From a virus (taxonomy: Duplodnaviria > Heunggongvirae > Uroviricota > Caudoviricetes): DNA of 27,673 nt. Location of the stretch: IMG/VR virus record IMGVR_UViG_2713896729_000005; one strand, written 5' to 3'. Under the pieces are notes generated by a model, which saw only the letters and a program-made list of their open reading frames with translations, was not told where the DNA came from and made no database searches. Within the stretch, counting starts at the first letter, position 1; the number at the start of each line of letters is the position of its first letter. The position numbers and the translations under genes were made by a program. Below, one piece after another: positions 2,686 to 23,470 of the stretch.

Positions 2686-2903
2686 CGCAAAGTCTCCGCA
2701 ATTACACGCAAGAAAAAACCGCCATCAGGCGGCTTGGTGTTCTTTCAGTTCTTCAATTCGAATATTGGTTACGTCTGCATGTGCTATCTGCGCCCACAGC
2801 ATCCAGTGGTCATAGCAGTCGCTGATGTTCTCGGCTTCGATAACTCTGTTGAATGGTTCTCCATTCTATTCACCTGTGACTCGGAAGTGCATTTATCATC
2901 TCC

Positions 2904-2960
2904 ATAAAAAAACTCGCCGTAGCGAGTTCAGATAAAAGAAATCCTCGTCAGTGCGAGGAT
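2904..2960 (-). terminator. Two tandem hairpins with T-runs on the minus strand (intrinsic-terminator-like) upstream of xis
   Basis: Inverted repeats AACTCGC-CGTA-GCGAGTT (2911-2928, followed on minus strand by a T-run) and ATCCTCG-TCAGTG-CGAGGAT (2941-2960). Confidence 0.4.
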
Positions 2961-3132
2961 GCTGTTCATTGCTGCTATACACTTTTTTGCTCTCAACGTA
3001 AGCGGTAGCCCATTCTGTTGGGTTGGTGCAGTTGCTTTTAGGAAATGCTATTTACCCCTTAAATGTCGGCTGAAAGAGCTAAAATCCATGCAAAAAATTT
3101 ACGCAATTTTGTGTATTATTGTGCAGTAAGTA

Positions 3133-3735
3133 ATGAGCTATTTTCTGCGCAAAAAATGGATGGTAAATTTGTCCGGGTCAGGAAAAATTTTATGGGCGCT
3201 AAACATGAAAAAAGATTCGTATCCTTATTTGATTTGCATGACAGTTTCAGGGCTGATCTTTATTTTCCTTTTCTTCTGGTGGCGGGCAGATATCTACAGG
3301 GTCACGTTTCTTAATCAGAGTATATCCCACTATTACATTCTGTTTAGCATGGGAATAGCTTTTCTGTTATCTCTGTTTTGGGTTAAGAAGGGGATAGTAA
3401 AACAAAGCGGCTGGAAGAGTCTGTCAGCATACCTTAAGGTTTATGCAGGGATGTGCATATTTGCTGGATTTTTTCTGATTATACCCCTTACGACACTAAC
3501 TTATTTTTTGCCTGGAGAGACATCGTCTTACGTTGCACCGTATCGGTATACTTCCGGTAGTTCAAAAAGTTGTTCTGGAGCTGAGGTGGATGACCCCGAT
3601 CTACATGAGAATATTCGCATTTGCTATCCGTATGGCAATTATGAGTACGATAATATTATCTATGTTGAAAAGAAAATTAATATATTAGGTGCGGTAGTGA
3701 CATATGCACAGACCGCGCGTGATGATACTGAATGA
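3133..3735 (+). CDS. Hypothetical polytopic membrane protein (3 predicted TM helices, about 70-aa hydrophilic C-terminal domain); AT-rich opposite-strand insertion
   Basis: 200-aa ORF; hydrophobic segments LICMTVSGLIFIFLFFWW, YYILFSMGIAFLLSLFWV, VYAGMCIFAGFFLIIPLTTLTYFL; start ambiguous (alternative ATG at 3205, MKKDSYPYL...); a second overlapping frame (3063..3314) is less convincing. Confidence 0.6.
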   Translation: MSYFLRKKWMVNLSGSGKILWALNMKKDSYPYLICMTVSGLIFIFLFFWWRADIYRVTFLNQSISHYYILFSMGIAFLLSLFWVKKGIVKQSGWKSLSAYLKVYAGMCIFAGFFLIIPLTTLTYFLPGETSSYVAPYRYTSGSSKSCSGAEVDDPDLHENIRICYPYGNYEYDNIIYVEKKINILGAVVTYAQTARDDTE

Positions 3736-3769
3736 TATAGTATATAGCGGGCAAGTTTTAGTTAATTTA

Positions 3770-3793
3770 TCGAGGTAATATAATTTACCTCGA
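3770..3793 (+). terminator. Hairpin downstream of the membrane-protein ORF (possible intrinsic terminator)
   Basis: Perfect inverted repeat TCGAGGTAA-TATAAT-TTACCTCGA 35 nt after the stop codon; T-rich sequence follows. Confidence 0.4.
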
Positions 3794-3945
3794 CTCGTTT
3801 GTTCTGGTATTAATATTTCGCTTTACGACCGATTTTTATCTGATGATATCATGCGGTTTTCATATACTGACTTACTGTCTTTTCTCCGTTAGCGATTTTC
3901 TCCTGCTCAGCGATGATTTTATCTTTGGCTTCTAGTTAATTTCGC

Positions 3946-4167
3946 TCACTTCGAACCTCTCTGTTTACTGATAAGCTCCAGATCTTGCTGGCAACTGGCA
4001 CAAGTCCGACAACCCTGAACGGCCAGTCGTCTTCGTTCATCTATCGGATCGCCACACTCACAACAATGAGTGGCAGATATAGCCTGGTGGTTCAGGCGGC
4101 GCATTTTTATTGCTGTGTTGCGCTGTAATTCTTCAATTTCTGATGCTGAATCAATTATGTCTGCCAT
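3946..4167 (-). CDS. TraR/DksA-family C4 zinc-finger protein (lambda orf73-like)
   Basis: 73-aa ORF with CCECGDPIDERRRLAVQGCRTCASCQ four-cysteine motif typical of TraR/DksA. Confidence 0.8.
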   Translation of the reverse strand: MADIIDSASEIEELQRNTAIKMRRLNHQAISATHCCECGDPIDERRRLAVQGCRTCASCQQDLELISKQRGSK

Positions 4168-5581: not shown

Positions 5582-6363
5582 GCTGCCACCTTCTGCTCAG
5601 TGGCTTTCTGTTTAAGGAATCCAAGAGCTTTCACTGCTTCGGCCTGTGTCAGTTCTGACGATGCGCGAATGTCGCGGCGAAATATCTGGGAACAGAGCGG
5701 CAATAAGTCGTCATCCCATGTTTTATCCAGGGCGATCAGCAGAGTGTTAATCTCCTGCATGGTTTCATCGTTAACCGGAGTGATGTCGCGTTCCGGCTGA
5801 CGTTCTGCAGTGTATGCAGTATTTTCGACAATGCGCTCGGCTTCATCCTTGTCATAGATACCAGCAAATCCGAAGGCCAGACGGGCACACTGAATCATGG
5901 CTTTATGCCGTAACATCCGTTTGGGATGCGACTGCCACGGCCCCGTGATTTCTCTGCCTTCGCGGGTTTTGAATGGTTCGCGGCGGCATTCATCCATCCA
6001 CTCGGTAACGCAGATCGGATGATTGCGGTCTTTGCGGTAAATCCGGCATGTGCAGGATTCGTTGTCCTGTTCAAAGTCCATGCCGTCAAACTGCTGGTTT
6101 TCGTTGATGATGCGGGACCAGCCATCAACGCCCACCACCGGAACGATGCCGTTCTGCTTATCAGGGAAGGCGTAAATTTCTTTCGTCCACGGATTAAGAC
6201 CGTACTGGTTGGCGACGATCAGCAATGCGATGAACTGCGCATCGCTGGCATCACCTTTAAATGCCGTCTGGCGAAGAGTGGTGATCAGTTCCTGTGGGTC
6301 GACAGAATCCATGCCGACTCGTTCAGCCAGCTTCCCAGCCAGCGTTGCGAGTGCTGTACTCAT
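5578..6363 (-). CDS. bet: Lambda Bet (Red-beta) single-strand annealing protein
   Basis: 261-aa translation [66 protein letters not shown]... matches lambda Bet; overlaps exo start. Confidence 0.95.
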
Positions 6364-7168: not shown

Positions 7169-7220
7169 TCATCGCAACGGTGAAACAGGTGGTTACCGTA
7201 TCGTTGTGTCGTTGCGATGA
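7169..7220 (-). promoter_or_regulatory. 11-bp perfect inverted repeat (TCATCGCAACG ... CGTTGCGATGA, 30-nt loop) in the leader of the leftward early transcript
   Basis: Seen directly in sequence, between the operator cluster and the Kil-like gene; function unknown. Confidence 0.35.
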
Positions 7221-7224
7221 ATTT

Positions 7225-7290
7225 AATTTAAAACTATAGTTGTTTTATCGTCAACAACAAAAGTTGTTTTGTCGGTTGTTTTAAATATAA
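7225..7290. promoter_or_regulatory. Leftward operator/promoter region (OL-like) with repeated AAAAC...GTTGTTTT sites
   Basis: Sites AAAACTATAGTTGTTTT (7230-7246), AACAAAAGTTGTTTT, CGGTTGTTTT; the 17-mer is nearly identical to a site in the cI-cro intergenic region (8784-8800, opposite orientation). Confidence 0.5.
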
Positions 7291-7394
7291 CTGGTTGTAT
7301 TTAGGATGGATTTATTTTGTGACTTGCATCGCATAGCGATAACTGAAGTGAGGTGTGGTGGTTTTTTGGACGGTATGAGTTATGAGGGGGAGGA

Positions 7395-7420
7395 AAAGAA
7401 AACCCGGCGCGGTTGCCGGG
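7395..7420 (-). terminator. Intrinsic terminator downstream of the lipoprotein gene
   Basis: GC-rich hairpin CCCGGC-GCGGTT-GCCGGG 9 nt after the stop, followed on the minus strand by a T-rich run. Confidence 0.6.
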
Positions 7421-7428
7421 TATGATTA

Positions 7429-7809
7429 TCAGTCAGCCCAACCTGATTTCGAGTTTATTTGGGTTTCTGACATTGTGTATTTCTTAATCGTGTCATCGTT
7501 AAAAAGAATAGTAAGTTCTTTTTTCGTACCGTTCGTTCCATTATGGAATAATCCATAGAATGGAATAAAAGTGGTGCCATTAACTTTTACTTTTGCAAAG
7601 GCGTACTTCCAGATCTCGTTTCCACTGTCAGTATATGAAACAGCATCAGGAGAACCAAAGTAAGATTTAACCTCATTCTTGGTTGTTTTACCTTCCTGAA
7701 GTTTAGACTGGACACTAATTTCAGTTTCATTTTTGAGTTGCTGGTTGCCTGAAGAAGCACACCCAGCCAATACAGATGCCATCATGGCAGCGATTAGGAT
7801 TTTTCTCAT
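7429..7809 (-). CDS. Hypothetical secreted lipoprotein (126 aa) in the immunity region
   Basis: Signal peptide plus lipobox MRKILIAAMMASVLAGC; AT-rich; located between the repressor gene and OL, with its own terminator. Confidence 0.75.
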   Translation of the reverse strand: MRKILIAAMMASVLAGCASSGNQQLKNETEISVQSKLQEGKTTKNEVKSYFGSPDAVSYTDSGNEIWKYAFAKVKVNGTTFIPFYGLFHNGTNGTKKELTILFNDDTIKKYTMSETQINSKSGWAD

Positions 7810-7824
7810 TTTATGTTTCCATTC

Positions 7825-7830
7825 ATTATA
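7825..7830 (-). promoter_or_regulatory. Consensus -10 hexamer TATAAT (minus strand) 15 nt upstream of the lipoprotein start codon
   Basis: Sequence only; no convincing -35 element identified. Confidence 0.3.
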
Positions 7831-8038
7831 ATCAGAAACATCTTAACATAATGATTCGAAATAAAAACCGCTACGAGATAGGGGGACATTTTGCTGACAG
7901 TAGCAACAAATCTCAGCTAACAACGAGAATATTTACTGAAATATGCAAACAGATTTGGCGTTCTTATAGAGAATTTAGTGCAATATCTAATCCGAGTGGT
8001 ATAAACCTTAACCTTCGCTCCCTTAAGTCGTAGATAAA

Positions 8039-8728
8039 TTAACCATGCTTCCTGTACGTCTGCGGCATGCTTCCAATGACCTTACCGAATATGAACACCC
8101 GGTTCATCTCGTCTTTCTCGATCGGGTCCCACGGCGAGTAGCTCTTGTTATCAGAGATAACCAGCAGCTTATCCTTCATCATTTGAAGACGTTTTACATG
8201 GGCAGTGTCGTCGTACAGAAACGCATAGATGCCATCACCGTCGAAAGATTTAACAGTGATATCAACGAACAGCAGGTCACCTGGTTCGATCGTCCCTGAC
8301 ATGCTGTCACCTCGCACGTTAATGATGCGGATATTTTCCGCCTTCCTGCCATCGAACATGTGACGAGCATCGTCAAACGAGTACTCAACCGAGCGTAGAA
8401 CTTCTACAAACTCACGGTTGATTACACCTGGCCCGGCACTGACTTCTATATCAAGAACGTCAATTTTGAAGTATTTGGAATGGCTGACAGTTGATTGTAT
8501 TGGTTGCACTGTACTGTCTGACATATTTCCAACGCCAGAAGATAACCATTCTGCGCGCACACCCAAAGCGTTCGCGATCTCCACGATTTTAGTTGTTTGG
8601 TTAGCTTTCCCTGTTTCGATTTTCTGAATAGCAGCCTGGCTAACCCCGACCAAATCCCCAAGCGCCTTTTGTGTAAGGCCTCGCGCTAATCTGGCTTCTT
8701 TAAGTCTTTCTGAGAGTGTTGTTTTCAT
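8039..8728 (-). CDS. CI-type prophage repressor (N-terminal XRE-family HTH, C-terminal S24 LexA-like autopeptidase domain)
   Basis: 229-aa ORF; HTH segment LTQKALGDLVGVSQAAIQKIETGK; S24 catalytic motifs GDSM and downstream Lys (HVKRL); divergent from cro. Confidence 0.85.
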   Translation of the reverse strand: MKTTLSERLKEARLARGLTQKALGDLVGVSQAAIQKIETGKANQTTKIVEIANALGVRAEWLSSGVGNMSDSTVQPIQSTVSHSKYFKIDVLDIEVSAGPGVINREFVEVLRSVEYSFDDARHMFDGRKAENIRIINVRGDSMSGTIEPGDLLFVDITVKSFDGDGIYAFLYDDTAHVKRLQMMKDKLLVISDNKSYSPWDPIEKDEMNRVFIFGKVIGSMPQTYRKHG

Positions 8729-12040: not shown

Positions 12041-13459
12041 TTAGAAAATAATGTTTGCTATATCCGAGATAGCATTTAAAGAACCTCTGTGGTCACTTCC
12101 TGTTTTAGGTAAAATATAGGAATATCGAGGGTCTTCATTATATGTTAACTTCCAGTGTTTTCCATCGCTTGACGCACTGAAACCTAAGTCCTTTAAATTT
12201 CTTTGTGTTGCGCTATCCATGCTTCTGTAACCTGTTAAAGTCCTTTTAAGTAATTGGCGGCGACTCTCGGTTTCTTTATTGTATTCATTATTGGCAATTA
12301 GGGATGATAAGATATGGTAGCTTCTACCAAATTCATTTTTATTTTTTATGGCAGTTTTTAGTGCGTCAATAATTATATTTTTGATTTCTCCATCAAAAAA
12401 ATCAGTCTCTTCACCAGCATTAAGCACAATGCTTCCTTGGGCTGAAGCTTGTGATTGAAGAGTGCGTACTCTGTGCTCTAAAGAGGAGATCTTATGCTTA
12501 AGATCTTCTATTTGGTCATCTTTCGCAACATTATCGGCTTCGTAAAGCGCCATCAGTTCGCGTGTGTATTCTCCTCTTTCTTTGAGTGAGTTAATAGAGT
12601 CTTTCGTTTTTCTGGTTTGTATCTCACTCCATCCACTATCTGAGACAGGAGCCATTGTAGTCGTAGCTCTTACAACATCATCAAATAACTCATCTTCAAA
12701 TTCTTTTGCGGTTTTCTCACCACGGCGATAAAAACTGATATTTTGACCCCGTGGCCAATAGATACCAACAGCACCAGCATAGGCATTTTTAGCATTTGTC
12801 TCATTTTTTAGCTTAATAGAAAATAGTCTATTGCTAGGCTCAATTAATACATGTGCTAATCCGCATACCTTTCTTGCAAGGCGTTCTGGGATGATATTGT
12901 GAGCATGTTCATTAAAAAAATACTTGGAGCTAACGTATATTATTGGTAGTCTGTTGTCAGTTTCACCATTTATAACTTTAGCTGCTATATTTAAATGTTC
13001 ATCAGTATCATCTAAGGAATGAGGTTCGACTGACACCTTGAAAATATCATCAAGACCACCAGAAAATTTATCAATCAATCTCATAACAACTAATGGTTTC
13101 TTAGGTTGCGGGGCTAGATAAGCTGCATCTTGGCTTACAACGCTAGATTCCACCTGAATCCACATGGTATCAGTTTTGAGATTTTTATTAATTGAAATAT
13201 CTGTTACCCATTTGTGTGGCTCAGATATTTTCGAATACCTAAAACAGCCTAAACTAGTATCTTTGTTTTTATAAGTTATTATATCAATTCTTTCATTTTT
13301 AGACTCTATGAAGTACTCCTCGCTTTTATAATCACATACTAATTGTGCTGGAATAAAAGTTGTATGTGGTGAGTCGTTTACCCAAGAAAAACATTCATTA
13401 AAGATCTCAGCTAGAGATGTGGAGTTTGAAACATAAAAACCAGTTGAGAAATATTTCAT
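12041..13459 (-). CDS. Hypothetical 472-aa protein of unrecognised family; accessory gene inserted between ren and ninB
   Basis: Long uninterrupted ORF in a visibly AT-rich segment; RBS (AAGGA) 8 nt before ATG; central coiled-coil-like segment (...DQIEDLKHKISSLEHRVRTLQSQASAQ...); no Walker A, HNH or other motif I recognise. Confidence 0.8.
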   Translation of the reverse strand: MKYFSTGFYVSNSTSLAEIFNECFSWVNDSPHTTFIPAQLVCDYKSEEYFIESKNERIDIITYKNKDTSLGCFRYSKISEPHKWVTDISINKNLKTDTMWIQVESSVVSQDAAYLAPQPKKPLVVMRLIDKFSGGLDDIFKVSVEPHSLDDTDEHLNIAAKVINGETDNRLPIIYVSSKYFFNEHAHNIIPERLARKVCGLAHVLIEPSNRLFSIKLKNETNAKNAYAGAVGIYWPRGQNISFYRRGEKTAKEFEDELFDDVVRATTTMAPVSDSGWSEIQTRKTKDSINSLKERGEYTRELMALYEADNVAKDDQIEDLKHKISSLEHRVRTLQSQASAQGSIVLNAGEETDFFDGEIKNIIIDALKTAIKNKNEFGRSYHILSSLIANNEYNKETESRRQLLKRTLTGYRSMDSATQRNLKDLGFSASSDGKHWKLTYNEDPRYSYILPKTGSDHRGSLNAISDIANIIF

Positions 13460-15279: not shown

Positions 15280-16329
15280 TTAGGCCAGCACACCAATTGC
15301 CAGCGCGTGATCGATAAATCGAAAAATCAGCTCCAGTTGGGAGCCATACTTCTCTTCAAATGCCACGGTATCCGTATGCAGTTCGTCGTGATGCTTTCTG
15401 CATAAAGGCAACACAAAAAGATCATGTGCTTTGGTTCCCATTCCGCCCTGCCCGTGACCAATCAGATGATGCGGATCGTCGGCTGGCATACCGCAGCAAG
15501 CACACGGCTGTGTCTTCACCCAGCGAGTGTATTTCTCCTTAACCCAGCGGCGACGTTTAGGTAGCTTCATGAAAGATTCCGGAGACTCAGGATCAACGGT
15601 GATGCTTACCACCGTCCTTTCCTGTAGTGGGTGTTGTTCCTGGTGGGCGTGAGGCAACAGTGCAAGATTTTTTGTGCGCTGTTTCAATATGCTGGTGGCG
15701 GTCTGCTCTCCCGGTACGATGTCGCTTTCGCGGTACATTGAGCGGATTTTTTCCGCTGGTAATCCCAGCGAGCGACGTAATACCGCTTCAGGTAGCGCAT
15801 CCGCCACCTGATTTCGGACCGCCCACCAGGATAATTCAGCCAGAGATAATTCACGCTCCTGCGTACCGCTTATTGCGTGACCGATGACGTCAATCATCCA
15901 TGCTGACAGGTTTTGATGAGCAAGTTGCTCGAGTGATTCGGATGTCTGGTCACGCAGCTGGTTGTCGCAGTGCCAGCACAACACCATTGCGCCGGTACCA
16001 TAACGGTGAATGACGGTTTCACTGTGGTGATAATCGCCGTGTGGCCACTGGCAGGATTTAATATGGCGCAACAGCCAGTCAGACAATGCACCAGCACCAC
16101 CAGCAGCACGAATCACCCGTGCGTTACTGAAAAACGGCAGCAATGTTTTGTCTTCCACCAGCGGCTGGCGAACGGCAGGAACGACCCCGGACGGCAGATT
16201 ACGCATGCTTTTCGGTTCCGGCTCCACCAGTACCCGGGTATTGTGGAATACCGGCATGGATTCACGGCCCGGCTTAACGATCACCACCCCGAGTTCCGGT
16301 ACCAGAACAGGTCGAAGTAATACCCGCAC
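15280..16329 (-). CDS. YdfU-like prophage protein with cysteine/histidine-rich C-terminal region
   Basis: 349-aa ORF; C-terminal CACCGMPADDPHHLIGHGQGGMGTKAHDLFVLPLCRKHHDELH; stop codon abuts the gap. Confidence 0.65.
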   Translation of the reverse strand: MRVLLRPVLVPELGVVIVKPGRESMPVFHNTRVLVEPEPKSMRNLPSGVVPAVRQPLVEDKTLLPFFSNARVIRAAGGAGALSDWLLRHIKSCQWPHGDYHHSETVIHRYGTGAMVLCWHCDNQLRDQTSESLEQLAHQNLSAWMIDVIGHAISGTQERELSLAELSWWAVRNQVADALPEAVLRRSLGLPAEKIRSMYRESDIVPGEQTATSILKQRTKNLALLPHAHQEQHPLQERTVVSITVDPESPESFMKLPKRRRWVKEKYTRWVKTQPCACCGMPADDPHHLIGHGQGGMGTKAHDLFVLPLCRKHHDELHTDTVAFEEKYGSQLELIFRFIDHALAIGVLA

Positions 16330-16330
16330 G

Positions 16331-16609
16331 TTACCTCCAGATCCGTTGCTGGTATGTGCGGGATGAACGCGGTGGGCGTTCGGAGTAAGGGAGTCTGACT
16401 GAGATTATCCAGTGACGGTAGTCGAGGCTAAGAGCTTTCTTAACCTCGTATCCGCGCCTGCGGTAACACTGAATTATCCATTCCGCCTGCTCTTCAGTGC
16501 ATGGAGGATGCTGGAACCAGTCTGATTTGAATGCGTGAAAACGCCGTCCGCACCTACTGGCAAAGACGGCAGAATCATTAGAATTGTGTAATTTGGTATC
16601 GTGCGCCAT
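16331..16609 (-). CDS. Rem-like small protein; start chosen at internal ATG
   Basis: 92-aa product MAHDTKLHNSNDSAVFASRCGRRFHAFKSDWFQHPPCTEEQAEW...; position between ydfU-like and hok as in Qin; the ORF track shows a 135-aa extension. Confidence 0.5.
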   Translation of the reverse strand: MAHDTKLHNSNDSAVFASRCGRRFHAFKSDWFQHPPCTEEQAEWIIQCYRRRGYEVKKALSLDYRHWIISVRLPYSERPPRSSRTYQQRIWR

Positions 16610-16776
16610 CGGTTGTCTCTGCTGGCGCAGCAGGTGCCAGTTGTTCAGGCTGGCGTGCGAATTGTAAACCAGAATGCCAGGAAAAAACAAAACCCGCCGA
16701 AGCGGGTTACGTGCGGGTGCGTTGAGGATGCCTGACACATCAGAGGTGGCGAGGGATTTCTCCCCCGCCAGGTCTC

Positions 16777-16932
16777 TTACTCCTCAGGTTCGTAAGCTGT
16801 GAAGACAGCGACCTCCGTCTGGCCGGTTCGGATTCGTACCTCGCAGAGGTCTTTCCTCGTTACCAGTGCCGTCACTATGACGGTTAAACAGATGACGATC
16901 AGGGCGATTAACATCGCCTTTTGCTGCTTCAT
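16777..16932 (-). CDS. hok: Hok/Gef-family type I toxin (membrane-depolarising peptide)
   Basis: 51-aa ORF found by manual translation: MKQQKAMLIALIVICLTVIVTALVTRKDLCEVRIRTGQTEVAVFTAYEPEE; below the ORF-track size cutoff. Confidence 0.85.
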   Translation of the reverse strand: MKQQKAMLIALIVICLTVIVTALVTRKDLCEVRIRTGQTEVAVFTAYEPEE

Positions 16933-17190
16933 AGCCTGCTTCTCCTTGACCTTTCGGTCCGTAAGAGGCTAATCTCTATGTGTCGCATAGATATGGCCTC
17001 AGATTAATGTTAAGCGTCTTGCAGGACGCGTAATGTTAACTGGGGCTTTTCTCTATCTGCCTTTTGGTGTTCATGCCTGAGACAGATAGCCTCAAGCACC
17101 CGCAGTCATTCTACTTAACTAAGATTTCCCCGCAAACCGTTTTTGTCCGGCACAGTAAATATCCAACTAAACCAATGGCGTTCGCTGTAT

Positions 17191-17370
17191 TTACCGCCAG
17201 TATTCAATGCACATGACCGCCATGAACACCCCTAAAAAAAGGGCATTTATATATCCAAATATTAATATCAAAACATCAACTTTTTCCATATACCTTGCTG
17301 TGAAGATGATGGGCATACATGATACGAACAACCAGAACGCAACAAACAAAAACTGCAATGCGTTTTTCAT
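17191..17370 (-). CDS. Hypothetical small hydrophobic protein (59 aa, about 2 TM helices)
   Basis: ATG preceded by strong RBS (AGGAGG); MKNALQFLFVAFWLFVSCMPIIFTARYMEKVDVLILIFGYINALFLGVFMAVMCIEYWR; AT-rich. Confidence 0.45.
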   Translation of the reverse strand: MKNALQFLFVAFWLFVSCMPIIFTARYMEKVDVLILIFGYINALFLGVFMAVMCIEYWR

Positions 17371-17599
17371 TATTCCTCCTACAATCAATGTGCAATTACA
17401 TTTAAACACACCTCAATTTGGCCGGACATATAAATATCTAAACCAGAAAAAATCACTTACATAGCGTTACAAACTCTTTAGTCTAAATATTCATCGTAAA
17501 ACATTCCCCATACTTATCAGCCCGTTCTGCGCCAGGTAGCTCATTGCCTTATCTGGGAATCTGTAATCAGGTTTCCGGATGCTGGTGGATTTTCGCGTT

Positions 17600-17857
17600 T
17601 TAGTTGTTCATAAAAGTGCACAGCTTTAACCAGTTCTTCTGATGTAACCGGGACTGGCGGGGCAGTGAATAAGGCCTGAATTTCATAGTTCGGCCTGTCG
17701 TTACAATCCTCTTTTTTCGGTACATATTTCCAGTCACCAGACCACTACTTCCCCTGAAAGTCCGTAACGCCTTTTTTTTCACGTAGCGATATCGCCATGC
17801 CACTGTTTTTGCTTGCCCCGCCGTTTCATGCCCTTCCTGATAATTAACCTCGCTCAT
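17600..17857 (-). CDS. Possible small basic protein (85 aa); weak call
   Basis: Start ATG overlaps the stop of the upstream acidic ORF (ATGA), suggesting coupling, but composition is unusual and the region could be non-coding. Confidence 0.3.
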   Translation of the reverse strand: MSEVNYQEGHETAGQAKTVAWRYRYVKKKALRTFRGSSGLVTGNMYRKKRIVTTGRTMKFRPYSLPRQSRLHQKNWLKLCTFMNN

Positions 17858-18030
17858 TCATCGCCCCACTCATCACAATATGCTTCGACCGGAGTTTTTC
17901 CTGCTTCATAATCATCACGCCATGCTTCAGCATCAGCAGCACTGCCACCACGTAACTCTGCATAGTCCATTAACAGTTCATGCCATTCTTCAAAACTGAC
18001 GTTGTATTTAGTTGAACCAAAATCAGCCAT
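17854..18030 (-). CDS. Hypothetical small acidic protein (58 aa)
   Basis: Manual translation MADFGSTKYNVSFEEWHELLMDYAELRGGSAADAEAWRDDYEAGKTPVEAYCDEWGDE; start overlaps stop of upstream ORF (ATGGCTGA). Confidence 0.5.
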   Translation of the reverse strand: MADFGSTKYNVSFEEWHELLMDYAELRGGSAADAEAWRDDYEAGKTPVEAYCDEWGDE

Positions 18031-18205
18031 TTTGTTCTTCCTCTTCGTCTTTTATTTCGTGATATGAGTAATTGCAGTAGTTAAAGAAAATATCTTTTGC
18101 TTCGTCATGTATTTCATCAGGCGTCGCATCATCATCCACTTCGAATTCATCCTCGAAATCTCCACCGGCTATTCCCGTTTCAATAATTATTTTAAACTTT
18201 CGCAT
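18023..18205 (-). CDS. Hypothetical small, highly acidic protein (60 aa)
   Basis: MRKFKIIIETGIAGGDFEDEFEVDDDATPDEIHDEAKDIFFNYCNYSYHEIKDEEEEQNG; about one third D/E. Confidence 0.5.
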   Translation of the reverse strand: MRKFKIIIETGIAGGDFEDEFEVDDDATPDEIHDEAKDIFFNYCNYSYHEIKDEEEEQNG

Positions 18206-18298
18206 TTAACTACCGCCCTTTCGGGCGGCCTCCTGATGTTCTGAGGGTGCAGAAATCCCTCCGGTTAAGGATTAAATTTTTAACAGAGCTAAATTTAA

Positions 18299-18655
18299 TT
18301 ATTCAGTTCTGGATTTTGTCGCCCTGCGTATCCGCGCTTTCGCGTTACGCTCAATCTGAATTAGCTTTTCTATATTTTTTCGCCTTTCCCGCTCCTCCTG
18401 ACGCAAGAGCCTTACATCATCTGCCAGTCTGGTTTCTCTTTTCGCCACAGAGAGCATCCAGTCAAATGGCTCCACAACTGCACCGCAGATTTTACAGCGG
18501 ACCTGACGCTCTTTTTCGTCAACCCGGACAGAGGCGTGATGACAATATGGTCTTTCCGATGGCTCATAAAGAAAATTAACCTGATTACGAGGGTCATCCT
18601 CTTTTACCGGAAATAAAACGATATTGCTTAACTCATCCTCTGGTTTTATTTCCAT
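18299..18655 (-). CDS. Hypothetical protein with possible zinc-binding motif (HH...CKICG)
   Basis: 118-aa product from internal ATG with strong RBS (AAGGAGAGGAG); the ORF track shows a 19-codon upstream extension. Confidence 0.5.
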   Translation of the reverse strand: MEIKPEDELSNIVLFPVKEDDPRNQVNFLYEPSERPYCHHASVRVDEKERQVRCKICGAVVEPFDWMLSVAKRETRLADDVRLLRQEERERRKNIEKLIQIERNAKARIRRATKSRTE

Positions 18656-18712
18656 GCTCCTCTCCTTTGATGCGAATGCCAGCGGTAATTGAAGCCTGAT
18701 AGCTAATTTCAC

Positions 18713-19135
18713 TCACAGTACCGCCTCCTGAAAATTACCCTGATAGAAAGCCAGTACACGCTGCATAGCTTCACTCTTCCGGCACTCGCGACAGATTATG
18801 TTTAGGCGACTGTCGTAGCGACGTATTTCTCCGTCAGGTGATGACCAGATAAGGTCCGGATCAACCACAGCAGGTTTCTTCACCTTTGCCCTCGAGAGTT
18901 TTTTGCGGGCGTTTTGCCAGTCCTTACGCGCCTGTTCAGAGGGGAATAACCCGTAGCCGGAGTTGTATACATCGCCGCTGGCAACCAGCTCTCTTGCGAG
19001 AACGCTCATCAGATATCTTGTCGCACCTGTCTTGACTTCCAGTTGCCGTAACGTCTCACGCCCACTCTGGCGTACGAGTTCAACAACCTGCCCTTTAATT
19101 TTTTCTCGCTCTTCTTGTGTAAAAACTTTTGCCAC
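18713..19135 (-). CDS. Hypothetical protein with Ren-like C-terminus
   Basis: 140-aa ORF; C-terminal ...ICRECRKSEAMQRVLAFY resembles the ...FKECRQSAAMKRVLALY end of Ren from the first prophage; follows the replication gene. Confidence 0.5.
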   Translation of the reverse strand: MAKVFTQEEREKIKGQVVELVRQSGRETLRQLEVKTGATRYLMSVLARELVASGDVYNSGYGLFPSEQARKDWQNARKKLSRAKVKKPAVVDPDLIWSSPDGEIRRYDSRLNIICRECRKSEAMQRVLAFYQGNFQEAVL

Positions 19136-19175
19136 AAGCCCTCCTGAAAATTACCTCATGACCAGAAATCAACAC

Positions 19176-20252
19176 TTACCCCCTGAAGCCCGGTGGAATT
19201 TCGGTATCCGGTTCAGAAATATGATTCACACAACGCTGGTTGTTCGTGCCGCTTACCGGGAGCAACCAGGGGTTCTCAAAATTCCGGTCCGGTCCAAAAA
19301 ACGTCGTCGCTCGCTGAACAAATTCCGTTCCCGTTTTCCCGGTAGCCGCCAAGTATCTTGCGTAACGCCTCACGCCATCCAGCATGGCCTCTGGTGGCAC
19401 CCCCTCGCGTAATCTGGCCTTCCAGGCACTGAAAGCGGATTTCTTCGGGTTTGCTCCGGCACGCAACGGGTACTCCCGCCAGACCTGTTCGAACACATCC
19501 GGATAATCCACTCGTCCCACAGACAGCCCGGTGTTTTCCGGGACTACCCGATCGGCTTCCCGCTGAATGGCGGAATCGGCTTCAGGCTGCTGCAGTTGGT
19601 GTGATTGCTCCGGCCTTGGGGTCATCACCTGCTGCACAGCGCCCGAATCGGCTTTCAGCGCATACGCTGAATCGGCTTCCGGTGTCGTGCCTGCTGGCTG
19701 ACCAGGATTGACGGTCTGAACATCCCCTGCCTGGTTCGTGGCGTTTTTTACGCCATGGACCATAGTGTTTTGATCTTCTTGATCTGTATCTTTATCTGTA
19801 TCTTTATCTGTCGTGACTCGTCGTGACATGTGCGTGACATTTCGTGACGCGCCGTGACAATCGCCATTTTGTTCCCGCTTTCTTTCCCTCTCTCGCTGCG
19901 CCCTCTTGCGCTCTGCCGGAGATTTTGCGGTTTGCGAAATATTGCCGTTGTCCTCTTTCAGCACCTGGCGTTTTTCCCATCCAGTGATTAAATCACCATC
20001 AAGTACCCGCCCCTGCATCGTCTGCAAAATTGAATCAATTACCTCTTCTGTCACGTCGAGCGCACTTGCCAAATCTTCTGTCGTGACATCAATGTGACCT
20101 CGCGTGACATTTCGTGACGCGCTCACCAGGAGGTGGATATACACTGCCATCACTGTTGCAATTGGCTGCCCTGACACCCTGGCAATTGTTCGCCACTTAG
20201 GGTCATTTGGCATGTCATGCCATAATCTGAGCCAGGCGTTAGCCATACTCAC
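19176..20252 (-). CDS. Putative phage replication initiator / replisome organiser with internal iteron-like repeats
   Basis: 358-aa ORF in the O-gene position (after cro and YdaT); contains two clusters of short direct repeats that translate to the repeated peptide ASRNVT and DKDTDKDTD. Confidence 0.55.
   Translation of the reverse strand: MSMANAWLRLWHDMPNDPKWRTIARVSGQPIATVMAVYIHLLVSASRNVTRGHIDVTTEDLASALDVTEEVIDSILQTMQGRVLDGDLITGWEKRQVLKEDNGNISQTAKSPAERKRAQRERERKREQNGDCHGASRNVTHMSRRVTTDKDTDKDTDQEDQNTMVHGVKNATNQAGDVQTVNPGQPAGTTPEADSAYALKADSGAVQQVMTPRPEQSHQLQQPEADSAIQREADRVVPENTGLSVGRVDYPDVFEQVWREYPLRAGANPKKSAFSAWKARLREGVPPEAMLDGVRRYARYLAATGKTGTEFVQRATTFFGPDRNFENPWLLPVSGTNNQRCVNHISEPDTEIPPGFRG
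19771..19860. repeat. Iteron-like direct repeats (TATCTTTATCTG x2-3; CGTGAC x5) inside the replication gene
   Basis: Seen in sequence; includes the 21-mer GCGTGACATTTCGTGACGCGC at 19832-19852. Confidence 0.6.
20080..20122. repeat. Second iteron cluster; 21-mer GCGTGACATTTCGTGACGCGC repeated exactly at 20102-20122
   Basis: Perfect 21-bp direct repeat of 19832-19852, 270 bp apart. Confidence 0.6.
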
Positions 20253-20317
20253 CTCTTCTGATACCGAATCTTTTTACTCACGAGTTGCCGGAAGCGATTC
20301 GATATGGCTATTGTCAG

Positions 20318-20743
20318 TCAATGTACTGCCACAGCATTTCCTGCCGGGCCACCACGGTTCATCTGATTGAAACCGGCGATTGCCACTGCGACAAAATCAT
20401 CAGCGTCTCTCACCAGTCGCTCCCGCGTCTCCACCAGCTCCCGAAAATAAGCTGAACTGTGGCTGCGCATTCTGGCCACCAGCAAAGGTGGCATTGCCTT
20501 TTCGATCGCTGGTAACAACGCCTGAATTTTTTCAACTGCATCAGGGGTGTCTTTCTCTACCCAGCGGAAAATTTTCTGGGTATTGCGAGCCAGGGCTTCC
20601 GGATGGCTGTCGTCATACAGTTCCGGGAACGTCATTCCCAGCTCGAAATACGCTTTGGTAATTTTCGCAGCCGGTACTTTTTCGCCGTCCGGATGCGCCC
20701 AGGCATTCATCGCCATGCGGATGTGTTCATGCTTGATTTTCAT
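20318..20743 (-). CDS. YdaT-family protein (CII-position regulator)
   Basis: 141-aa ORF beginning MKIKHEHI and ending AVH, matching the remembered start and end pattern of Rac YdaT. Confidence 0.7.
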   Translation of the reverse strand: MKIKHEHIRMAMNAWAHPDGEKVPAAKITKAYFELGMTFPELYDDSHPEALARNTQKIFRWVEKDTPDAVEKIQALLPAIEKAMPPLLVARMRSHSSAYFRELVETRERLVRDADDFVAVAIAGFNQMNRGGPAGNAVAVH

Positions 20744-20970
20744 GAATCCCCCCCTTGGTTAGAAGGCGGATTATGATCAGAACCGGGAATGACAACCGTC
20801 GGTATGTGTAACTCATATTTGAGCGCCCCGGCAGTGACTGCCTGAATTAGCAACGCCCATTTCCACGGAACCTCTTCCCCCCACATGCTGACTGTGGTTT
20901 TTGACGTTCCTAGAGCTGCGGCTGTTTTAACAACTCCGCCAAAATAGCCTAATACTTCTGATTTTTTCAT
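20740..20970 (-). CDS. Cro-like regulator (DicC/YdaS-like), 76 aa
   Basis: MKKSEVLGYFGGVVKTAAALGTSKTTVSMWGEEVPWKWALLIQAVTAGALKYE...; divergent from the repressor gene; internal start chosen, the ORF track extends 16 codons upstream. Confidence 0.65.
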   Translation of the reverse strand: MKKSEVLGYFGGVVKTAAALGTSKTTVSMWGEEVPWKWALLIQAVTAGALKYELHIPTVVIPGSDHNPPSNQGGDS

Positions 20971-21061
20971 GAGTCGCTCCATAAAACTGAACGTCAAAAG
21001 TTTAATAATCAAAACCAAAGAAAGTCAAGAAACAAAACCATCTGTGTTTTAAAATCAAAAC
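20971..21061. promoter_or_regulatory. Divergent operator/promoter region between cro-like and repressor genes of the second prophage
   Basis: 91-bp AT-rich intergenic region with the palindromic element AAAACCATCTGTGTTTT. Confidence 0.4.
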
Positions 21062-21700
21062 ATGAGCAAGCAAACTATATCTGAACGCATAACCCAACGT
21101 ATGCATGCGCTAAACCTGAAAGGCAAAGACCTTGTCAATGGCACTGGCGCATCAAAAGGCTCCGTAAGTCAATGGATGAACGGTGGAGGAGCGCCGTCCT
21201 CGCGTTACATAAGTTCACTGGCAAAAATATTGAAAGTAAACGAAAATTGGCTTCTTAATGGAGGAGAGTTAAATACAGGTGATTCGCTTGATCTATCTTT
21301 ACCGCCGATAAAAACGGTTCCGCTACTATCACTTCAGCAGGCAGCAAGCTGGAGTGATTATATGAAAAATTCCTCAATAACCTCTTGTGTGCAGCTTGTC
21401 GGAGAAATCCCGGTCAATACCTTTGCAGTTGTTCTAGAGAGTGACAGTATGTCAACATCTGGTGGGGGAGTTTCCATCCCAAATGGTTCAACAGTTTTTG
21501 TTGATCCCGATCGAACCGTACAACCAGGAAATATTGTCCTTGCCTTACCCAAAGGGACCACAACACCTGTCATTCGTAAACTGGAGATAGAAGGGCCGGA
21601 TATTCTTTTAGTCCCCACGAATCCTCGCTACCCTTCAATTATGCTGGATGATCTATCTTGCATATTGGGCGTATGCTTTAAAATTCAACAAGATATTTAA
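21062..21700 (+). CDS. CI-type repressor (HTH plus S24 peptidase), heteroimmune to the first prophage repressor
   Basis: 212-aa ORF; S24 motifs ESDSM and downstream Lys (IRKL); N-terminal HTH; sequence unlike the repressor at 8039..8728. Confidence 0.8.
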   Translation: MSKQTISERITQRMHALNLKGKDLVNGTGASKGSVSQWMNGGGAPSSRYISSLAKILKVNENWLLNGGELNTGDSLDLSLPPIKTVPLLSLQQAASWSDYMKNSSITSCVQLVGEIPVNTFAVVLESDSMSTSGGGVSIPNGSTVFVDPDRTVQPGNIVLALPKGTTTPVIRKLEIEGPDILLVPTNPRYPSIMLDDLSCILGVCFKIQQDI

Positions 21701-22866: not shown

Positions 22867-22919
22867 TTTCTGGTGACGTTTGGCGGTATCAGTTTTACTC
22901 CGTGACTGCTCTGCCGCCC
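22867..22919 (+). ncRNA. dicF: DicF small RNA (trans-acting sRNA that represses ftsZ)
   Basis: Sequence TTTCTGGTGACGTTTGGCGGTATCAGTTTTACTCCGTGACTGCTCTGCCGCCC matches my memory of the 53-nt DicF RNA; correct position between ydfC and dicB; followed by a T-run. Confidence 0.7.
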
Positions 22920-23093
22920 TTTTTAAAGTGAATTTTGTGATGTGGTGAATGCGGCTGAGCGCACGCGGAACAGTTAAAACCAAAAACAGTGTTATGGGTG
23001 GATTCTCTGTATCCGGCGTTAATTGTTAACTGGTTAACGTCACCTGGAGGCACCAGGCACTGCATCACAAAATTCATTGTTGAGGACGCGATA

Positions 23094-23282
23094 ATGAAAA
23101 CGTTATTACCAAACGTTAATACGTCTGAAGGTTGTTTTGAAATTGGTGTCACTATCAGTAACCCAGTATTTACTGAAGATGCCATTAACAAGAGAAAACA
23201 AGAACGGGAGCTATTAAATAAAATATGCATTGTTTCAATGCTGGCTCGTTTACGTCTGATGCCAAAAGGATGTGCACAATGA
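23094..23282 (+). CDS. dicB: DicB cell-division inhibitor (acts through MinC)
   Basis: 62-aa ORF MKTLLPNVNTSEGCFEIGVTISNPVFTEDAINKRKQERELLNKICIVSMLARLRLMPKGCAQ; the ORF track extends upstream, the internal ATG fits the known size. Confidence 0.85.
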   Translation: MKTLLPNVNTSEGCFEIGVTISNPVFTEDAINKRKQERELLNKICIVSMLARLRLMPKGCAQ

Positions 23283-23470
23283 ATTCAGCATTTGTGCTTG
23301 TTCTGACAGTTTTTCTTGTTTCCGGAGAGCCAGTTGATATTGCAGTCAGTGTTCACAGGACAATGCAGGAGTGTATGACTGCAGCAACCGAACAGAAAAT
23401 TCCCGGTAACTGTTACCCGGTCGATAAAGTTATTCACCAGGATAATATCGAAATCCCGGCAGGTCTTTAA
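23279..23470 (+). CDS. ydfD: YdfD-like small membrane protein
   Basis: 63-aa ORF MNSAFVLVLTVFLVSGEPVDIAVSVHRTMQECMTAATEQKIPGNCYPVDKVIHQDNIEIPAGL; start overlaps dicB stop. Confidence 0.8.
   Translation: MNSAFVLVLTVFLVSGEPVDIAVSVHRTMQECMTAATEQKIPGNCYPVDKVIHQDNIEIPAGL

What the first reader, a model, noticed from the sequence alone, without database searches (positions are those of the whole stretch)
2930..3945. Opposite-strand membrane-protein gene inserted between xis and the TraR-like gene
All flanking early-left genes are on the minus strand, but a 200-aa ORF on the plus strand lies in an AT-rich segment at the position where lambda carries ea8.5/ea22. It predicts about three transmembrane helices followed by a hydrophilic C-terminal domain of about 70 aa. 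It is flanked by hairpins on both sides (2904-2960 and 3770-3793), suggesting an insulated, independently transcribed cargo gene. Candidate exclusion or abortive-infection membrane protein; family unrecognised.
Basis: partly seen in the sequence, partly recalled or inferred. Interest (0 to 1): 0.55.

Follow-up and report, generated by a model that had tools for sequence, protein, structure and literature searches.

The report
Prophage cargo gene for membrane protein
A real, strongly conserved but uncharacterised 176-residue inner-membrane protein gene sits backwards in this lambda-like prophage as a self-contained cassette; it is already present, unstudied, in classical phage 434, and P2-like prophages carry it at their main anti-phage hotspot, so it is a good but unproven candidate for protecting the lysogen at the cell envelope.

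Summary
A plus-strand ORF lies in an AT-rich patch between xis and the TraR-like gene, opposite to all its neighbours.

What I could establish:
- **Known sequence.** The DNA is 98.5-99.5% identical to phages 434, 2B8 and mEp332. In 434 it was deposited as 'ORF-22+' and later as 'putative membrane protein'. The segment is in 905 of 5,426 complete E. coli genomes.
- **Start codon.** The true start is ATG 3205, giving 176 aa rather than 200.
- **Selection.** dN/dS is 0.08-0.15. The alternative frame 3063-3314 is not conserved.
- **Protein.** Three TM helices, predicted N-in/C-out, followed by a roughly 74-aa periplasmic five-stranded beta-barrel. Its two cysteines are the only invariant residues in the family.
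- **Family.** No match in Pfam, NCBIfam, PADLOC or PDB sequences, and no significant fold match.
- **Cassette.** Positions 3068-3825 recur at 76% identity in the GpA-GpQ defence hotspot of E. coli P2-like prophages, and more divergent copies occupy the same slot in Salmonella and Klebsiella. This stretch holds three 10-bp-phased repeats, an extended -10 motif, the ORF and a terminator hairpin.
- **Chromosomal copies.** GC-adapted copies sit in a syntenic position in the Enterobacter cloacae complex and as a chromosomal gene in a Klebsiella sp.

Function is untested. My leading guess is envelope-level protection such as superinfection exclusion (about 0.4). A phage-independent envelope role is nearly as likely.

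The parts
3205..3735 (+). Coding sequence of the 176-aa membrane protein (stop codon included). True start is ATG 3205.
   Evidence: Homologues of 169-180 aa all begin at the MKK(D/Y)SY motif. dN/dS is 0.08-0.15 in this frame. PGAP annotates the 176-aa form in strain PSJ-42 as WP_000711110.1.
3133..3204 (+). In-frame upstream extension that gives the 200-aa ORF. It is not part of the conserved protein.
   Evidence: In-frame stop codons occur here in L025, L014, L013, L017, L004 and in the 96.7%-identical copy L038. It also lies upstream of, or across, the conserved -10 motif.
3223..3282 (+). TM helix 1 (residues 7-26 of the 176-aa protein)
   Evidence: Kyte-Doolittle 19-residue windows score above 1.4. 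AlphaFold2 gives a helix at residues 5-29 with pLDDT around 90.
3322..3384 (+). TM helix 2 (residues 40-60)
   Evidence: The preceding loop (W-x3-I-x-R-x-T-F-L) is conserved and forms a short strand in the model.
3442..3510 (+). TM helix 3 (residues 80-102). It is preceded by a Lys/Arg-rich loop that is predicted to be cytoplasmic.
   Evidence: K+R density across the family is 0.245 in loop 2 and 0.225 in the N-tail, against 0.13 in loop 1 and 0.11 in the C-domain.
3511..3732 (+). C-terminal five-stranded beta-barrel domain of about 74 aa, predicted to be periplasmic. The invariant Cys codons are at 3571-3573 and 3622-3624.
   Evidence: The AlphaFold2 domain model has pLDDT 88.3. The two Cys are the only invariant columns across 38 members, down to 17% identity. 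This domain has the lowest dN/dS, 0.076-0.085.
3161..3169 (+). Extended -10-like promoter element TGGTAAATT. The inferred transcription start is about 3176.
   Evidence: The motif TGNTAWWWT lies 44-48 nt upstream of the ATG in the window, L038, L025, L014, L013, L017 and L031 (Citrobacter). Function as a promoter is inferred, not shown.
3097..3125 (+). Three direct repeats related to TTGTGCA with a 10-bp period, starting at 3097, 3107 and 3117. Candidate regulator-binding array. It overlaps the TTGT-N6-TTGT that the 434 annotators marked as a CII site.
   Evidence: There are three perfect copies at -106, -96 and -86 in Salmonella L014, and two perfect copies plus TCGTGCA in E. coli P2-like L025. 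The 434 annotation is shown.
3770..3793 (+). Plus-strand terminator-like hairpin (9-bp stem, 6-nt loop, followed by a T-rich tail) 35 nt after the stop codon
   Evidence: RNA fold z-score is -2.56. The hairpin is partly retained in E. coli P2-like L025, with an apparent A-U to G-C change in the stem read by eye from the alignment.
3068..3825 (.). The mobile cassette: the stretch of DNA shared with P2-like prophages
   Evidence: blastn gives 76% identity over 761 nt to L025-L029, and 71% over 3072-3703 to L014. Similarity stops at these borders.
2941..2960 (-). Leftward terminator, corresponding to t-L4 of phage 434
   Evidence: It is annotated in M60848 at the corresponding position. The minus-strand stem is followed by TTCTTTTATC.
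2910..2929 (-). Second leftward terminator-like hairpin, followed by a T-run on the minus strand
   Evidence: The stem and T-tract are improved in the window relative to 434 and mEp332.

Best explanation
This is a moron: a self-contained promoter-gene-terminator cassette (3068-3825), AT-rich relative to its host phage, inserted antisense into the pL operon between xis and the TraR-like gene.

It encodes a 176-aa inner-membrane protein with a cytoplasmic N-terminus and three TM helices. Its C-terminal domain of about 74 aa is a five-stranded beta-barrel held by one disulfide and exposed in the periplasm, packed against the conserved first periplasmic loop.

The gene has its own promoter and points against lytic transcription. 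It is therefore most likely expressed from the repressed prophage.

I propose that the periplasmic barrel binds a partner at the outer face of the inner membrane. That partner could be an incoming phage's tape-measure or ejection-protein conduit, or the host inner-membrane protein that phages use for DNA entry. Binding would protect the lysogen against superinfection by blocking genome entry, in the way P22 SieA and HK97 gp15 do.

Shown: gene reality, start codon, cassette borders, predicted architecture, and distribution.

Inferred: promoter activity, prophage expression, topology, and the disulfide.

Speculative: the anti-phage function and its target.
For: **Real gene.** dN/dS is 0.08-0.15, and lowest in the C-domain. 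There are 74 homologues at E <= 1e-3 in the first search and 61 representatives in the 50%-identity library.

**Cassette.** The same 758-nt unit, with conserved upstream repeats, an extended -10 motif and a downstream hairpin, occurs in lambdoid and P2-like prophages. Gene GC is 0.38-0.44 against 0.47-0.54 in the phage flanks.

**Location.**
- In E. coli, Salmonella, Klebsiella and a metagenomic P2-like prophage it lies between GpA and the portal GpQ. PMC13586616 describes that site as the main P2 defence hotspot.
- It is kept intact in a decayed prophage remnant whose neighbours are pseudogenes.
- The segment is found in 905 of 5,426 complete E. coli genomes.

**Topology.** The positive-inside pattern holds across the family. 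Exactly two invariant Cys residues lie in the C-domain.

**Precedent.** P22 SieA is a 162-164-aa inner-membrane protein with three predicted TM helices that blocks DNA injection (PMC10883804). P22 sieB is likewise an opposite-strand gene with its own promoter inside the pL operon.
Against: - No experiment exists, and no literature mentions the protein.
- There is no PADLOC hit for it or for its hotspot neighbours.
- There is no homology to SieA, SieB or gp15.
- GC-adapted copies sit in a syntenic chromosomal position in five Enterobacter cloacae complex genomes and as a chromosomal gene in a Klebsiella sp. GC3 is 0.62-0.74 and there are no mobile-element neighbours. That is unusual for a dedicated anti-phage gene and suggests a cellular role.
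- Remote members have no conserved partner gene.
- The promoter is only a consensus-level inference; the generic sigma-70 scan did not flag it.
Confidence: 0.4

Rival explanations
1. It is a lysogenic-conversion or envelope fitness factor unrelated to phage defence. In this reading the protein family has a housekeeping-type role at the periplasmic face of the inner membrane, for example envelope-stress tolerance or immunity to a periplasm- or membrane-acting toxin (bacteriocin, T6SS or CDI effector). Temperate phages would have captured a host gene that benefits the lysogen directly.
For: - Syntenic, vertically inherited copies with host-like GC3 occur in five Enterobacter cloacae complex genomes, and a GC-adapted chromosomal copy in a Klebsiella sp..
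- Chromosomal islets occur in Cedecea and Citrobacter.
- Remote members lie in ordinary chromosomal neighbourhoods.
- There is no hit to any defence model.
Against: - The repeated capture is into the P2 GpA-GpQ hotspot, which according to PMC13586616 is populated mainly by antiviral genes.
- No toxin or secretion genes are adjacent in any context examined.
- No phenotype is known.
Confidence: 0.3
2. It is an abortive-infection membrane effector: a small pore-forming or membrane-disrupting protein that kills the infected cell when triggered.
For: - It is a small multi-TM protein encoded by a prophage cassette.
- The opposite-strand arrangement resembles P22 sieB.
- There is a weak, non-significant Foldseek match to an S-2TMbeta effector-like viral protein, E = 0.5.
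Against: - There is no cytoplasmic sensor domain and no partner gene.
- The only conserved soluble domain is predicted to be periplasmic and disulfide-bonded.
- Stable vertically inherited chromosomal copies are hard to reconcile with a constitutively expressed toxin.
- There is no homology to SieB or to PADLOC effectors.
Confidence: 0.08
3. It serves the phage's own life cycle rather than the lysogen. For example, it could be a CII-activated gene acting during the lysis-lysogeny decision, or its transcript could act as an antisense RNA against leftward transcription toward xis and int.
For: - A TTGT-N6-TTGT match at 3109-3122 was annotated as a CII site by the 434 annotators.
- P22 has a C1-activated rightward 'aI' RNA at the equivalent xis-proximal position.
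- The architecture of three TM helices plus a small C-terminal barrel superficially recalls NfeD proteins, the partners of SPFH proteins. HflK/C, which controls CII stability, is an SPFH complex facing the periplasm (established knowledge).
Against: - The same repeats and gene occur in P2-like prophages and in chromosomes that have no CII.
- About 6 such TTGY-N6-TTGY matches are expected by chance in a 48-kb genome (my calculation).
- There is no homology to NfeD/YbbJ: hhalign probability 1.45% and no Pfam hit.
- Strong protein-level selection shows that the product, not merely the transcript, matters.
Confidence: 0.07
4. It is not a functional gene. Either it is a chance ORF or degraded remnant, or the overlapping frame 3063-3314 is the real gene.
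For: - Annotators disagree on the start: 200, 188, 176 and 112 aa.
- PHROG 1416 covers only the C-terminal 88 residues.
Against: - dN/dS is 0.08-0.15 with saturated synonymous sites.
- Full-length conservation extends down to 17% identity.
- The AlphaFold2 model has pLDDT 87.5.
- The alternative frame lacks an ATG in 434 and carries stops in Salmonella, Klebsiella and other copies.
- The '112-aa' forms are short gene calls of an intact 176-codon ORF.
Confidence: 0.02

Closest known systems
P22 SieA (superinfection exclusion protein A)
   Same: It is a prophage-encoded protein of about 165 aa in the inner membrane, with three predicted TM helices. It has its own promoter and is expressed from the lysogen. 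It acts at the DNA-delivery step (PMC10883804). Size, TM count and moron-like organisation all match.
   Different: There is no detectable sequence relationship: hhalign probability is 0.15%. The soluble part of SieA lies between TM1 and TM2, and it has no C-terminal beta-barrel and no conserved Cys pair. The genomic position also differs (the immI region of P22). The function of the window's protein is untested.
HK97 gp15 moron
   Same: It is the textbook promoter-gene-terminator moron in a lambda-like phage. [quoted passage not shown] 2012, as cited in PMC13190303; annotation).
   Different: gp15 is 62 aa and sits among the tail genes. There is no homology: hhalign probability is 0.58%.
P22 / lambda SieB
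   Same: It is an opposite-strand gene with its own promoter embedded in the leftward early operon and expressed from the prophage.
   Different: There is no homology: hhalign probability is 0.88% and there is no Pfam SieB hit. SieB is an abortive-infection-type system with an internal-start antidote (Esc). No such arrangement is supported here.
NfeD family (e.g. E. coli YbbJ)
   Same: The domain order is the same: about three N-terminal TM helices followed by a small C-terminal beta-barrel. The total length is also about 150-180 aa (NfeD architecture from established knowledge).
DUF1093 / YxeA-like small beta-barrel proteins (PDB 3npp, 2k5q)
   Same: These are the best structural matches of the C-terminal domain. 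They are small membrane-associated beta-barrels of unknown function.
Phage 434 ORF-22+ / CPT_434_36 'putative membrane protein'
   Same: It is the same gene: the DNA is 98.5% identical and in the same position.
   Different: Nothing structural differs. The 434 records give a partial CDS (M60848) or a TTG-start 188-aa CDS (OL657226). The comparative data here place the start at the ATG that gives 176 aa.

Membership tests
Moron (independent transcription unit added to a phage genome) | Nucleotide composition differs from the surrounding phage genes | tested here: met
   The gene is 0.394 GC against 0.47 for the rest of the window. P2-borne copies are 0.38-0.44 against 0.53-0.54 in their flanks.
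Moron (independent transcription unit added to a phage genome) | Present or absent between otherwise homologous phages, and the same unit occurs in unrelated phages | tested here: met
   Among 50,697 phage records, only 434, 2B8 and mEp332 carry it. The same 3068-3825 unit lies in the P2-like GpA-GpQ slot.
Moron (independent transcription unit added to a phage genome) | Own terminator downstream | tested here: met
   The hairpin at 3770-3793 is followed by a T-rich tail and has a fold z-score of -2.56. Termination activity was not measured.
Moron (independent transcription unit added to a phage genome) | Own promoter, active in the lysogen | tested here: inconclusive
   A conserved extended -10-like motif lies 44-48 nt upstream of the ATG in seven contexts, together with phased upstream repeats. 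There are no transcript data, and the generic sigma-70 scan did not call it.
P22 SieA family | Sequence homology to SieA types A-C | tested here: not met
   hhalign of the family profile against P22 SieA gives probability 0.15%.
P22 SieA family | Inner-membrane protein with three TM helices | tested here: met
   Hydropathy analysis and the AlphaFold2 model both give three TM helices. This is a prediction only.
P22 SieA family | Blocks DNA injection by superinfecting phage | not testable with these tools
   This needs plating and DNA-entry assays.
SieB (Pfam PF14163) | Sequence homology | tested here: not met
   There is no Pfam hit at E <= 10 for 38 members. hhalign against P22 SieB gives probability 0.88%.
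HK97 gp15 | Sequence homology | tested here: not met
   hhalign gives probability 0.58%, and gp15 is only 62 aa.
NfeD (Pfam PF01957) | NfeD C-terminal domain detectable by sequence | tested here: not met
   There is no Pfam hit. hhalign against E. coli YbbJ gives probability 1.45%.
NfeD (Pfam PF01957) | Encoded next to an SPFH (stomatin/flotillin/HflK-like) gene | tested here: not met
   No SPFH/Band-7 family gene appears in any of the neighbourhoods examined.
Known anti-phage defence systems (PADLOC-DB v2) | Match to a defence-protein model | tested here: not met
   There are 0 families at E <= 1. The protein's accession numbers are absent from the DefensePredictor supplements.
PHROG 1416 (unknown function) | Match to the profile | tested here: met
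   E = 7e-51 over residues 113-200 of the 200-aa ORF. The profile covers only TM3 plus the C-domain, apparently because it was built from short gene calls.

The most novel reading that the evidence does not exclude
The protein founds a new, unclassified family of envelope-acting protective proteins. Its architecture is three TM helices plus a disulfide-bonded periplasmic beta-barrel. In this reading the family began as a resident chromosomal gene of Enterobacter and Klebsiella. It was later packaged, with its own regulated promoter (three 10-bp-phased TTGTGCA repeats), into a cassette that two unrelated temperate-phage lineages, lambdoid and P2-like, have captured. It would block genome entry of superinfecting phages by a mechanism unrelated to SieA, Imm or gp15. 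If true, that would also explain an overlooked phenotype of the classical phage 434 and of about one in six E. coli genomes.
Probability: 0.3. Interest if true: 0.6.

Novelty: new variant of a known kind. Interest (0 to 1): 0.45.

Why it matters
The segment is common. It is in 905 of 5,426 complete E. coli genomes, including O157:H7 and O104:H4 strains, and homologues occur in Shigella sonnei and in Salmonella and Klebsiella prophages. It has sat unstudied in phage 434, a classical model phage; its GenBank record M60848 already listed it as 'ORF-22+'.

It belongs to no Pfam, NCBIfam, PADLOC or PDB family. Yet it is under strong selection and travels as a compact cassette into the best-known antiviral hotspot of P2-like phages.

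If it is an exclusion protein, it adds a new family and probably a new periplasmic mechanism to the few injection-blocking systems known in enterobacteria. It would also be relevant to phage-therapy host-range prediction. If instead it is an envelope fitness factor, it is a widespread lysogenic-conversion gene.

Either way the experiment is cheap, because the cassette is 758 bp and carries its own putative regulatory signals.

Tried and rejected
**Family and sequence searches**
- Pfam, NCBIfam, PADLOC and PHROGs scans gave no informative family. The only match was PHROG 1416, of unknown function.
- A PDB sequence-profile search returned only chance TM matches.

**Fold searches**
- Foldseek against viral structures found nothing at E <= 0.001.
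- The afdb50 library was unavailable.

**Direct profile comparisons**
- P22 SieA, P22 SieB, HK97 gp15 and E. coli YbbJ (NfeD) were all negative.

**Hotspot neighbours**
- A PADLOC scan of ten neighbours in the P2 hotspot found no hits, so guilt by association rests on the slot itself, not on identified neighbours.

**Literature**
- Searches for 434 ORF55 and xis, mEp332, NleC with 434, and the accession numbers found no functional study.
- The DefensePredictor supplements do not list the protein.

**Broader distribution**
- A profile too diverse for the search for related loci failed. The narrower one returned only 7 loci.
- A 3,074-aa repetitive protein (P0123) matched the C-domain profile weakly in nine repeats. 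I judged this compositional and did not pursue it.
- Remote members' neighbourhoods (L042, L043) gave no conserved partner.

**Regulatory readings considered and not adopted**
- I considered CII control. It is unlikely, because the repeats are conserved in CII-less P2-like phages.
- I considered the repeats as DnaA boxes. There is a perfect TGTGCAAAA only in L014.
Full report
**1. What is there**

The window begins with ybhC and the lambda attachment region. A lambda-type int (1419-2489), xis (2467-2685) and the exo-xis genes follow, all on the minus strand.

Between xis and the TraR/DksA-like gene (3946-4167) lies a plus-strand ORF at 3133-3735. It sits in a segment of 0.34-0.41 GC, against 0.44-0.53 in the flanks. 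In lambda the equivalent slot, between xis and orf73 (the TraR homologue named in the title of PMC9239242, listed), holds ea8.5 and ea22 by my recollection of the lambda map.

Hydropathy analysis gives three TM segments and an acidic C-terminal tail of 74 aa. Three hairpins are present, at 2910-2929, 2941-2960 and 3770-3793.

**2. It is a known but uncharacterised gene**

The segment 2900-3950 is 99.5% identical to phage mEp332 and 98.5-98.6% identical to phages 2B8 and 434.

In the GenBank record M60848 for 434, the start of this ORF is 'ORF-22+' and the hairpin at 2941-2960 is terminator 't-L4'. The likely source paper is Baker et al. 1991, seen only as reference 80 of PMC13586616; I did not confirm the link. 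In the 2021-era 434 genome the ORF is 'putative membrane protein' CPT_434_36.

Among 50,697 phage records, only these three phages carry it. By contrast, 905 of 5,426 complete E. coli genomes hold at least 80% of the segment. RefSeq calls it 'hypothetical protein'. I found no paper that mentions it.

**3. Gene reality and start codon**

Homologues of 42-78% identity from Salmonella, Klebsiella, Enterobacter, Cedecea and Citrobacter are 169-180 aa long. All start at the motif MKK(D/Y)SY, which corresponds to ATG 3205.

The 24 codons upstream contain in-frame stops in every non-434-type copy, and even in a 96.7%-identical E. coli copy.

The rival frame 3063-3314 has no ATG in 434 and is broken by stops in Salmonella, Klebsiella and other copies.

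Nei-Gojobori dN/dS against the measurable homologues is 0.08-0.15. It is 0.076-0.085 in the C-terminal domain and 0.14-0.22 in the TM part. Synonymous sites are saturated for the more distant copies.

The '112-aa' proteins seen on thousands of contigs are short gene calls within an intact 176-codon ORF. This probably explains why PHROG 1416 covers only the C-terminal 88 residues.

**4. The protein**

AlphaFold2, run with a 25-sequence alignment, gives pLDDT 87.5. The model has three long helices, a short strand in the first loop, and a five-stranded beta domain. The domain modelled alone gives pLDDT 88.3.

Across 38 members, down to 17% identity, the only invariant residues are the two cysteines of the beta domain. 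These are C123 and C140 of the 176-aa protein, at codons 3571-3573 and 3622-3624.

Lys/Arg density is 0.225 in the N-tail and 0.245 in loop 2, against 0.13 in loop 1 and 0.11 in the C-domain. By the positive-inside rule the protein is N-in/C-out. The beta-barrel and the conserved loop 1 (W-x3-I-x-R-x-T-F-L) then face the periplasm. A periplasmic location fits an invariant Cys pair forming a disulfide. This topology and the disulfide are inferences; I could not inspect the model coordinates.

**5. No recognisable family**

- There is no match in Pfam, NCBIfam or PADLOC, even when every member is scanned at E <= 10.
- The PDB sequence-profile search returned nothing meaningful.
- BFVD gives nothing significant.
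- An exhaustive HMM search of 1.84 billion representatives finds only 61 proteins, so the family is narrow.
- Direct profile comparisons with P22 SieA, P22 SieB, HK97 gp15 and the NfeD protein YbbJ are all negative.

**6. Where the family lives**

There are three settings.

*(a) The lambdoid xis-orf73 slot.* This is the setting in the window, 434, mEp332, 2B8 and many E. coli prophages. It also includes a decayed KplE1-like remnant next to torI and dsdC. There the neighbours are pseudogenes but this gene is intact.

*(b) The P2-like GpA-GpQ slot.* The gene lies between the replication gene GpA and the portal GpQ of P2-like prophages in:
- E. coli (L025-L029),
- Salmonella (L013-L020, two subfamilies at 71% and 59% identity),
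- Klebsiella michiganensis (L004-L006),
- a metagenomic 186-like element (L023).

PMC13586616 states that many P2 defence systems lie in exactly this GpA-GpQ hotspot. [quoted passage not shown]

*(c) Ordinary chromosomal positions.*
- A syntenic position in five Enterobacter cloacae complex genomes (E. mori, E. sp. RIT637, E. intestinihominis, E. cloacae, E. quasihormaechei), with 83-97% identity between them.
- A Klebsiella sp.
- Islets in Cedecea and Citrobacter.

The Enterobacter and Klebsiella copies have host-like GC3 of 0.62-0.74. The phage-borne and islet copies have gene GC of 0.38-0.44 against flanks of about 0.45-0.54. The family therefore has long-resident chromosomal members and a mobile AT-rich lineage.

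**7. The cassette**

DNA similarity between the window and the E. coli P2-like prophages runs from 3068 to 3825 at 76% identity and stops there. The shared unit consists of about 137 nt upstream of the ATG, the ORF, and 90 nt downstream including the 3770-3793 hairpin. That hairpin is partly retained in L025, with what looks like one compensatory stem change, read by eye from the alignment.

Upstream there are two conserved features.
- An extended -10-like motif, TGNTAWWWT (TGGTAAATT at 3161-3169), lies 44-48 nt before the ATG in the window, L038, L025, L014, L013, L017 and Citrobacter L031.
- Three direct repeats related to TTGTGCA occur at exact 10-bp spacing: three perfect copies in L014, two in L025, and one perfect plus two degenerate in the window at 3097-3125.

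A transcription start near 3176 would exclude ATG 3133 and ATG 3160 as starts, which agrees with section 3.

The 434 annotators marked TTGT-N6-TTGT (window 3109-3122) as a CII site. The repeats are conserved in CII-less P2-like phages, and I calculate that about six such matches are expected by chance per 48-kb genome. I therefore regard CII control as unlikely. The factor that binds the repeats is unknown.

The two left-hand hairpins are followed by T-runs on the minus strand. One of them is t-L4 of 434. They terminate leftward transcription after it has crossed the cassette in antisense, and they are not part of the cassette.

**8. Interpretation**

*Solid:* this is a moron-type cargo gene. 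It encodes an inner-membrane protein that presents a small, probably disulfide-bonded beta-barrel to the periplasm.

*Inferred:* expression from the prophage. The gene has its own promoter and is oriented against pL transcription, as P22 sieB is.

*Unknown:* function.

The leading hypothesis, at about 0.4, is envelope-level protection of the lysogen, most simply a block to genome entry. It rests on several points:
- repeated capture into the P2 antiviral hotspot;
- retention in decayed prophages;
- high prevalence;
- the analogy with P22 SieA, an inner-membrane protein of about 165 aa with three predicted TM helices that blocks injection (PMC10883804), and with HK97 gp15.

Nearly as likely, at about 0.3, is a phage-independent envelope role such as stress tolerance or toxin immunity. 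The vertically inherited, GC-adapted chromosomal copies and the absence of any defence-model hit favour this reading.

An abortive-infection effector (0.08) fits poorly, because the only conserved soluble domain is periplasmic and there is no sensor or partner gene. A role in the phage's own decision circuitry (0.07) is possible but not supported by the distribution. 'Not a gene' is effectively excluded.

**9. Novelty and score**

The gene's existence is not new. What is new here:
- the corrected start codon;
- the family definition and topology;
- the two invariant cysteines;
- the cassette borders and conserved regulatory motifs;
- the link between a phage 434 gene and the P2 defence hotspot;
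- the resident chromosomal members.

As a kind, it is a moron-encoded envelope protein of a new family, that is, a new variant of a known kind. It is a sound, inexpensive experimental lead rather than a surprise, so I score interest at 0.45.

Noticed in passing
window 2725-2892 (-): The homologue of phage 434 ORF55, which is annotated as a CDS in 434 and mEp332, has a TAG stop at codon 9 in this window (MHFRVTGE*...). It looks like a pseudogene here.
   Followed up: partly
window 2959-3129 (+): This 56-aa ORF is annotated as a 'putative membrane protein' or hypothetical CDS in 434 and mEp332. It is frameshifted in a 92%-identical copy (L038) where the 176-aa gene is intact. Both 434 differences are non-synonymous, and most of the ORF lies outside the cassette shared with P2-like prophages. 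It is probably not a gene.
   Followed up: yes
window 2908-2930: Relative to 434 and mEp332, the window has a 2-nt deletion and a C-to-T change. Together these make the 2910-2929 stem perfect and lengthen the minus-strand T-run, giving a stronger leftward terminator just upstream of the (here broken) ORF55.
   Followed up: no
window 15280-21700: A second early-region-like block lies in the opposite orientation. It comprises DUF968/HNH (15280-16329, -), YdaT toxin-like (20318-20743, -) and a second S24/HTH repressor-like gene (21062-21700, +). This is in addition to the CI-like repressor at 8039-8728. It suggests tandem or rearranged prophages within the window.
   Followed up: no
window 7200-7950: This is another AT-rich patch (GC 0.36-0.41), next to the CI-like repressor. 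It holds a 126-aa minus-strand ORF (7429-7809) with a weak BamE-like hit (E = 1.6e-4, below the Pfam cut-off). It may be another cargo gene at the rex-like position.
   Followed up: no
window 12041-13459 (-) and 23527-26034 (+): There is a 472-aa ORF with no Pfam match, and an 835-aa ORF whose C-terminus is an Rv2179c-like 3'-5' exoribonuclease domain. Neither was examined further.
   Followed up: no
L026-L029, positions 5809-6339: The widespread '112-aa' protein (more than 1,000 contigs) of E. coli P2-like prophages is a short gene call starting at an internal GTG of an intact 176-codon ORF. PHROG 1416, a 90-position profile, appears to be built on such truncated calls.
   Followed up: yes
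L030 (JARKOR010000073.1): A 3.5-kb contig labelled as a 'Candidatus Nanosynbacter' metagenome-assembled genome is 98-99% identical at the protein level to this E. coli prophage region. This is almost certainly binning contamination.
   Followed up: partly
L026 6477-6812; L014 6703-7083; L004 2281-5623: The neighbours of the cassette in the P2 hotspot vary. They include an Ead/Ea22-domain ORF (a lambdoid exo-xis-type gene) in E. coli, a YafO-toxin gene in Salmonella, and a 790-aa AAA_16 protein plus a 279-aa protein in Klebsiella. None matches a PADLOC model.
   Followed up: partly
L024 (P22) 22896-23418; window 2709-2772: P22 has a C1-activated rightward 'aI' RNA at the xis-proximal position, which is a precedent for opposite-strand transcription in this region. 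Separately, a 64-nt stretch of the window that includes the 2716-2735 hairpin upstream of xis is 98% identical to the P22 aI terminator region.
   Followed up: no
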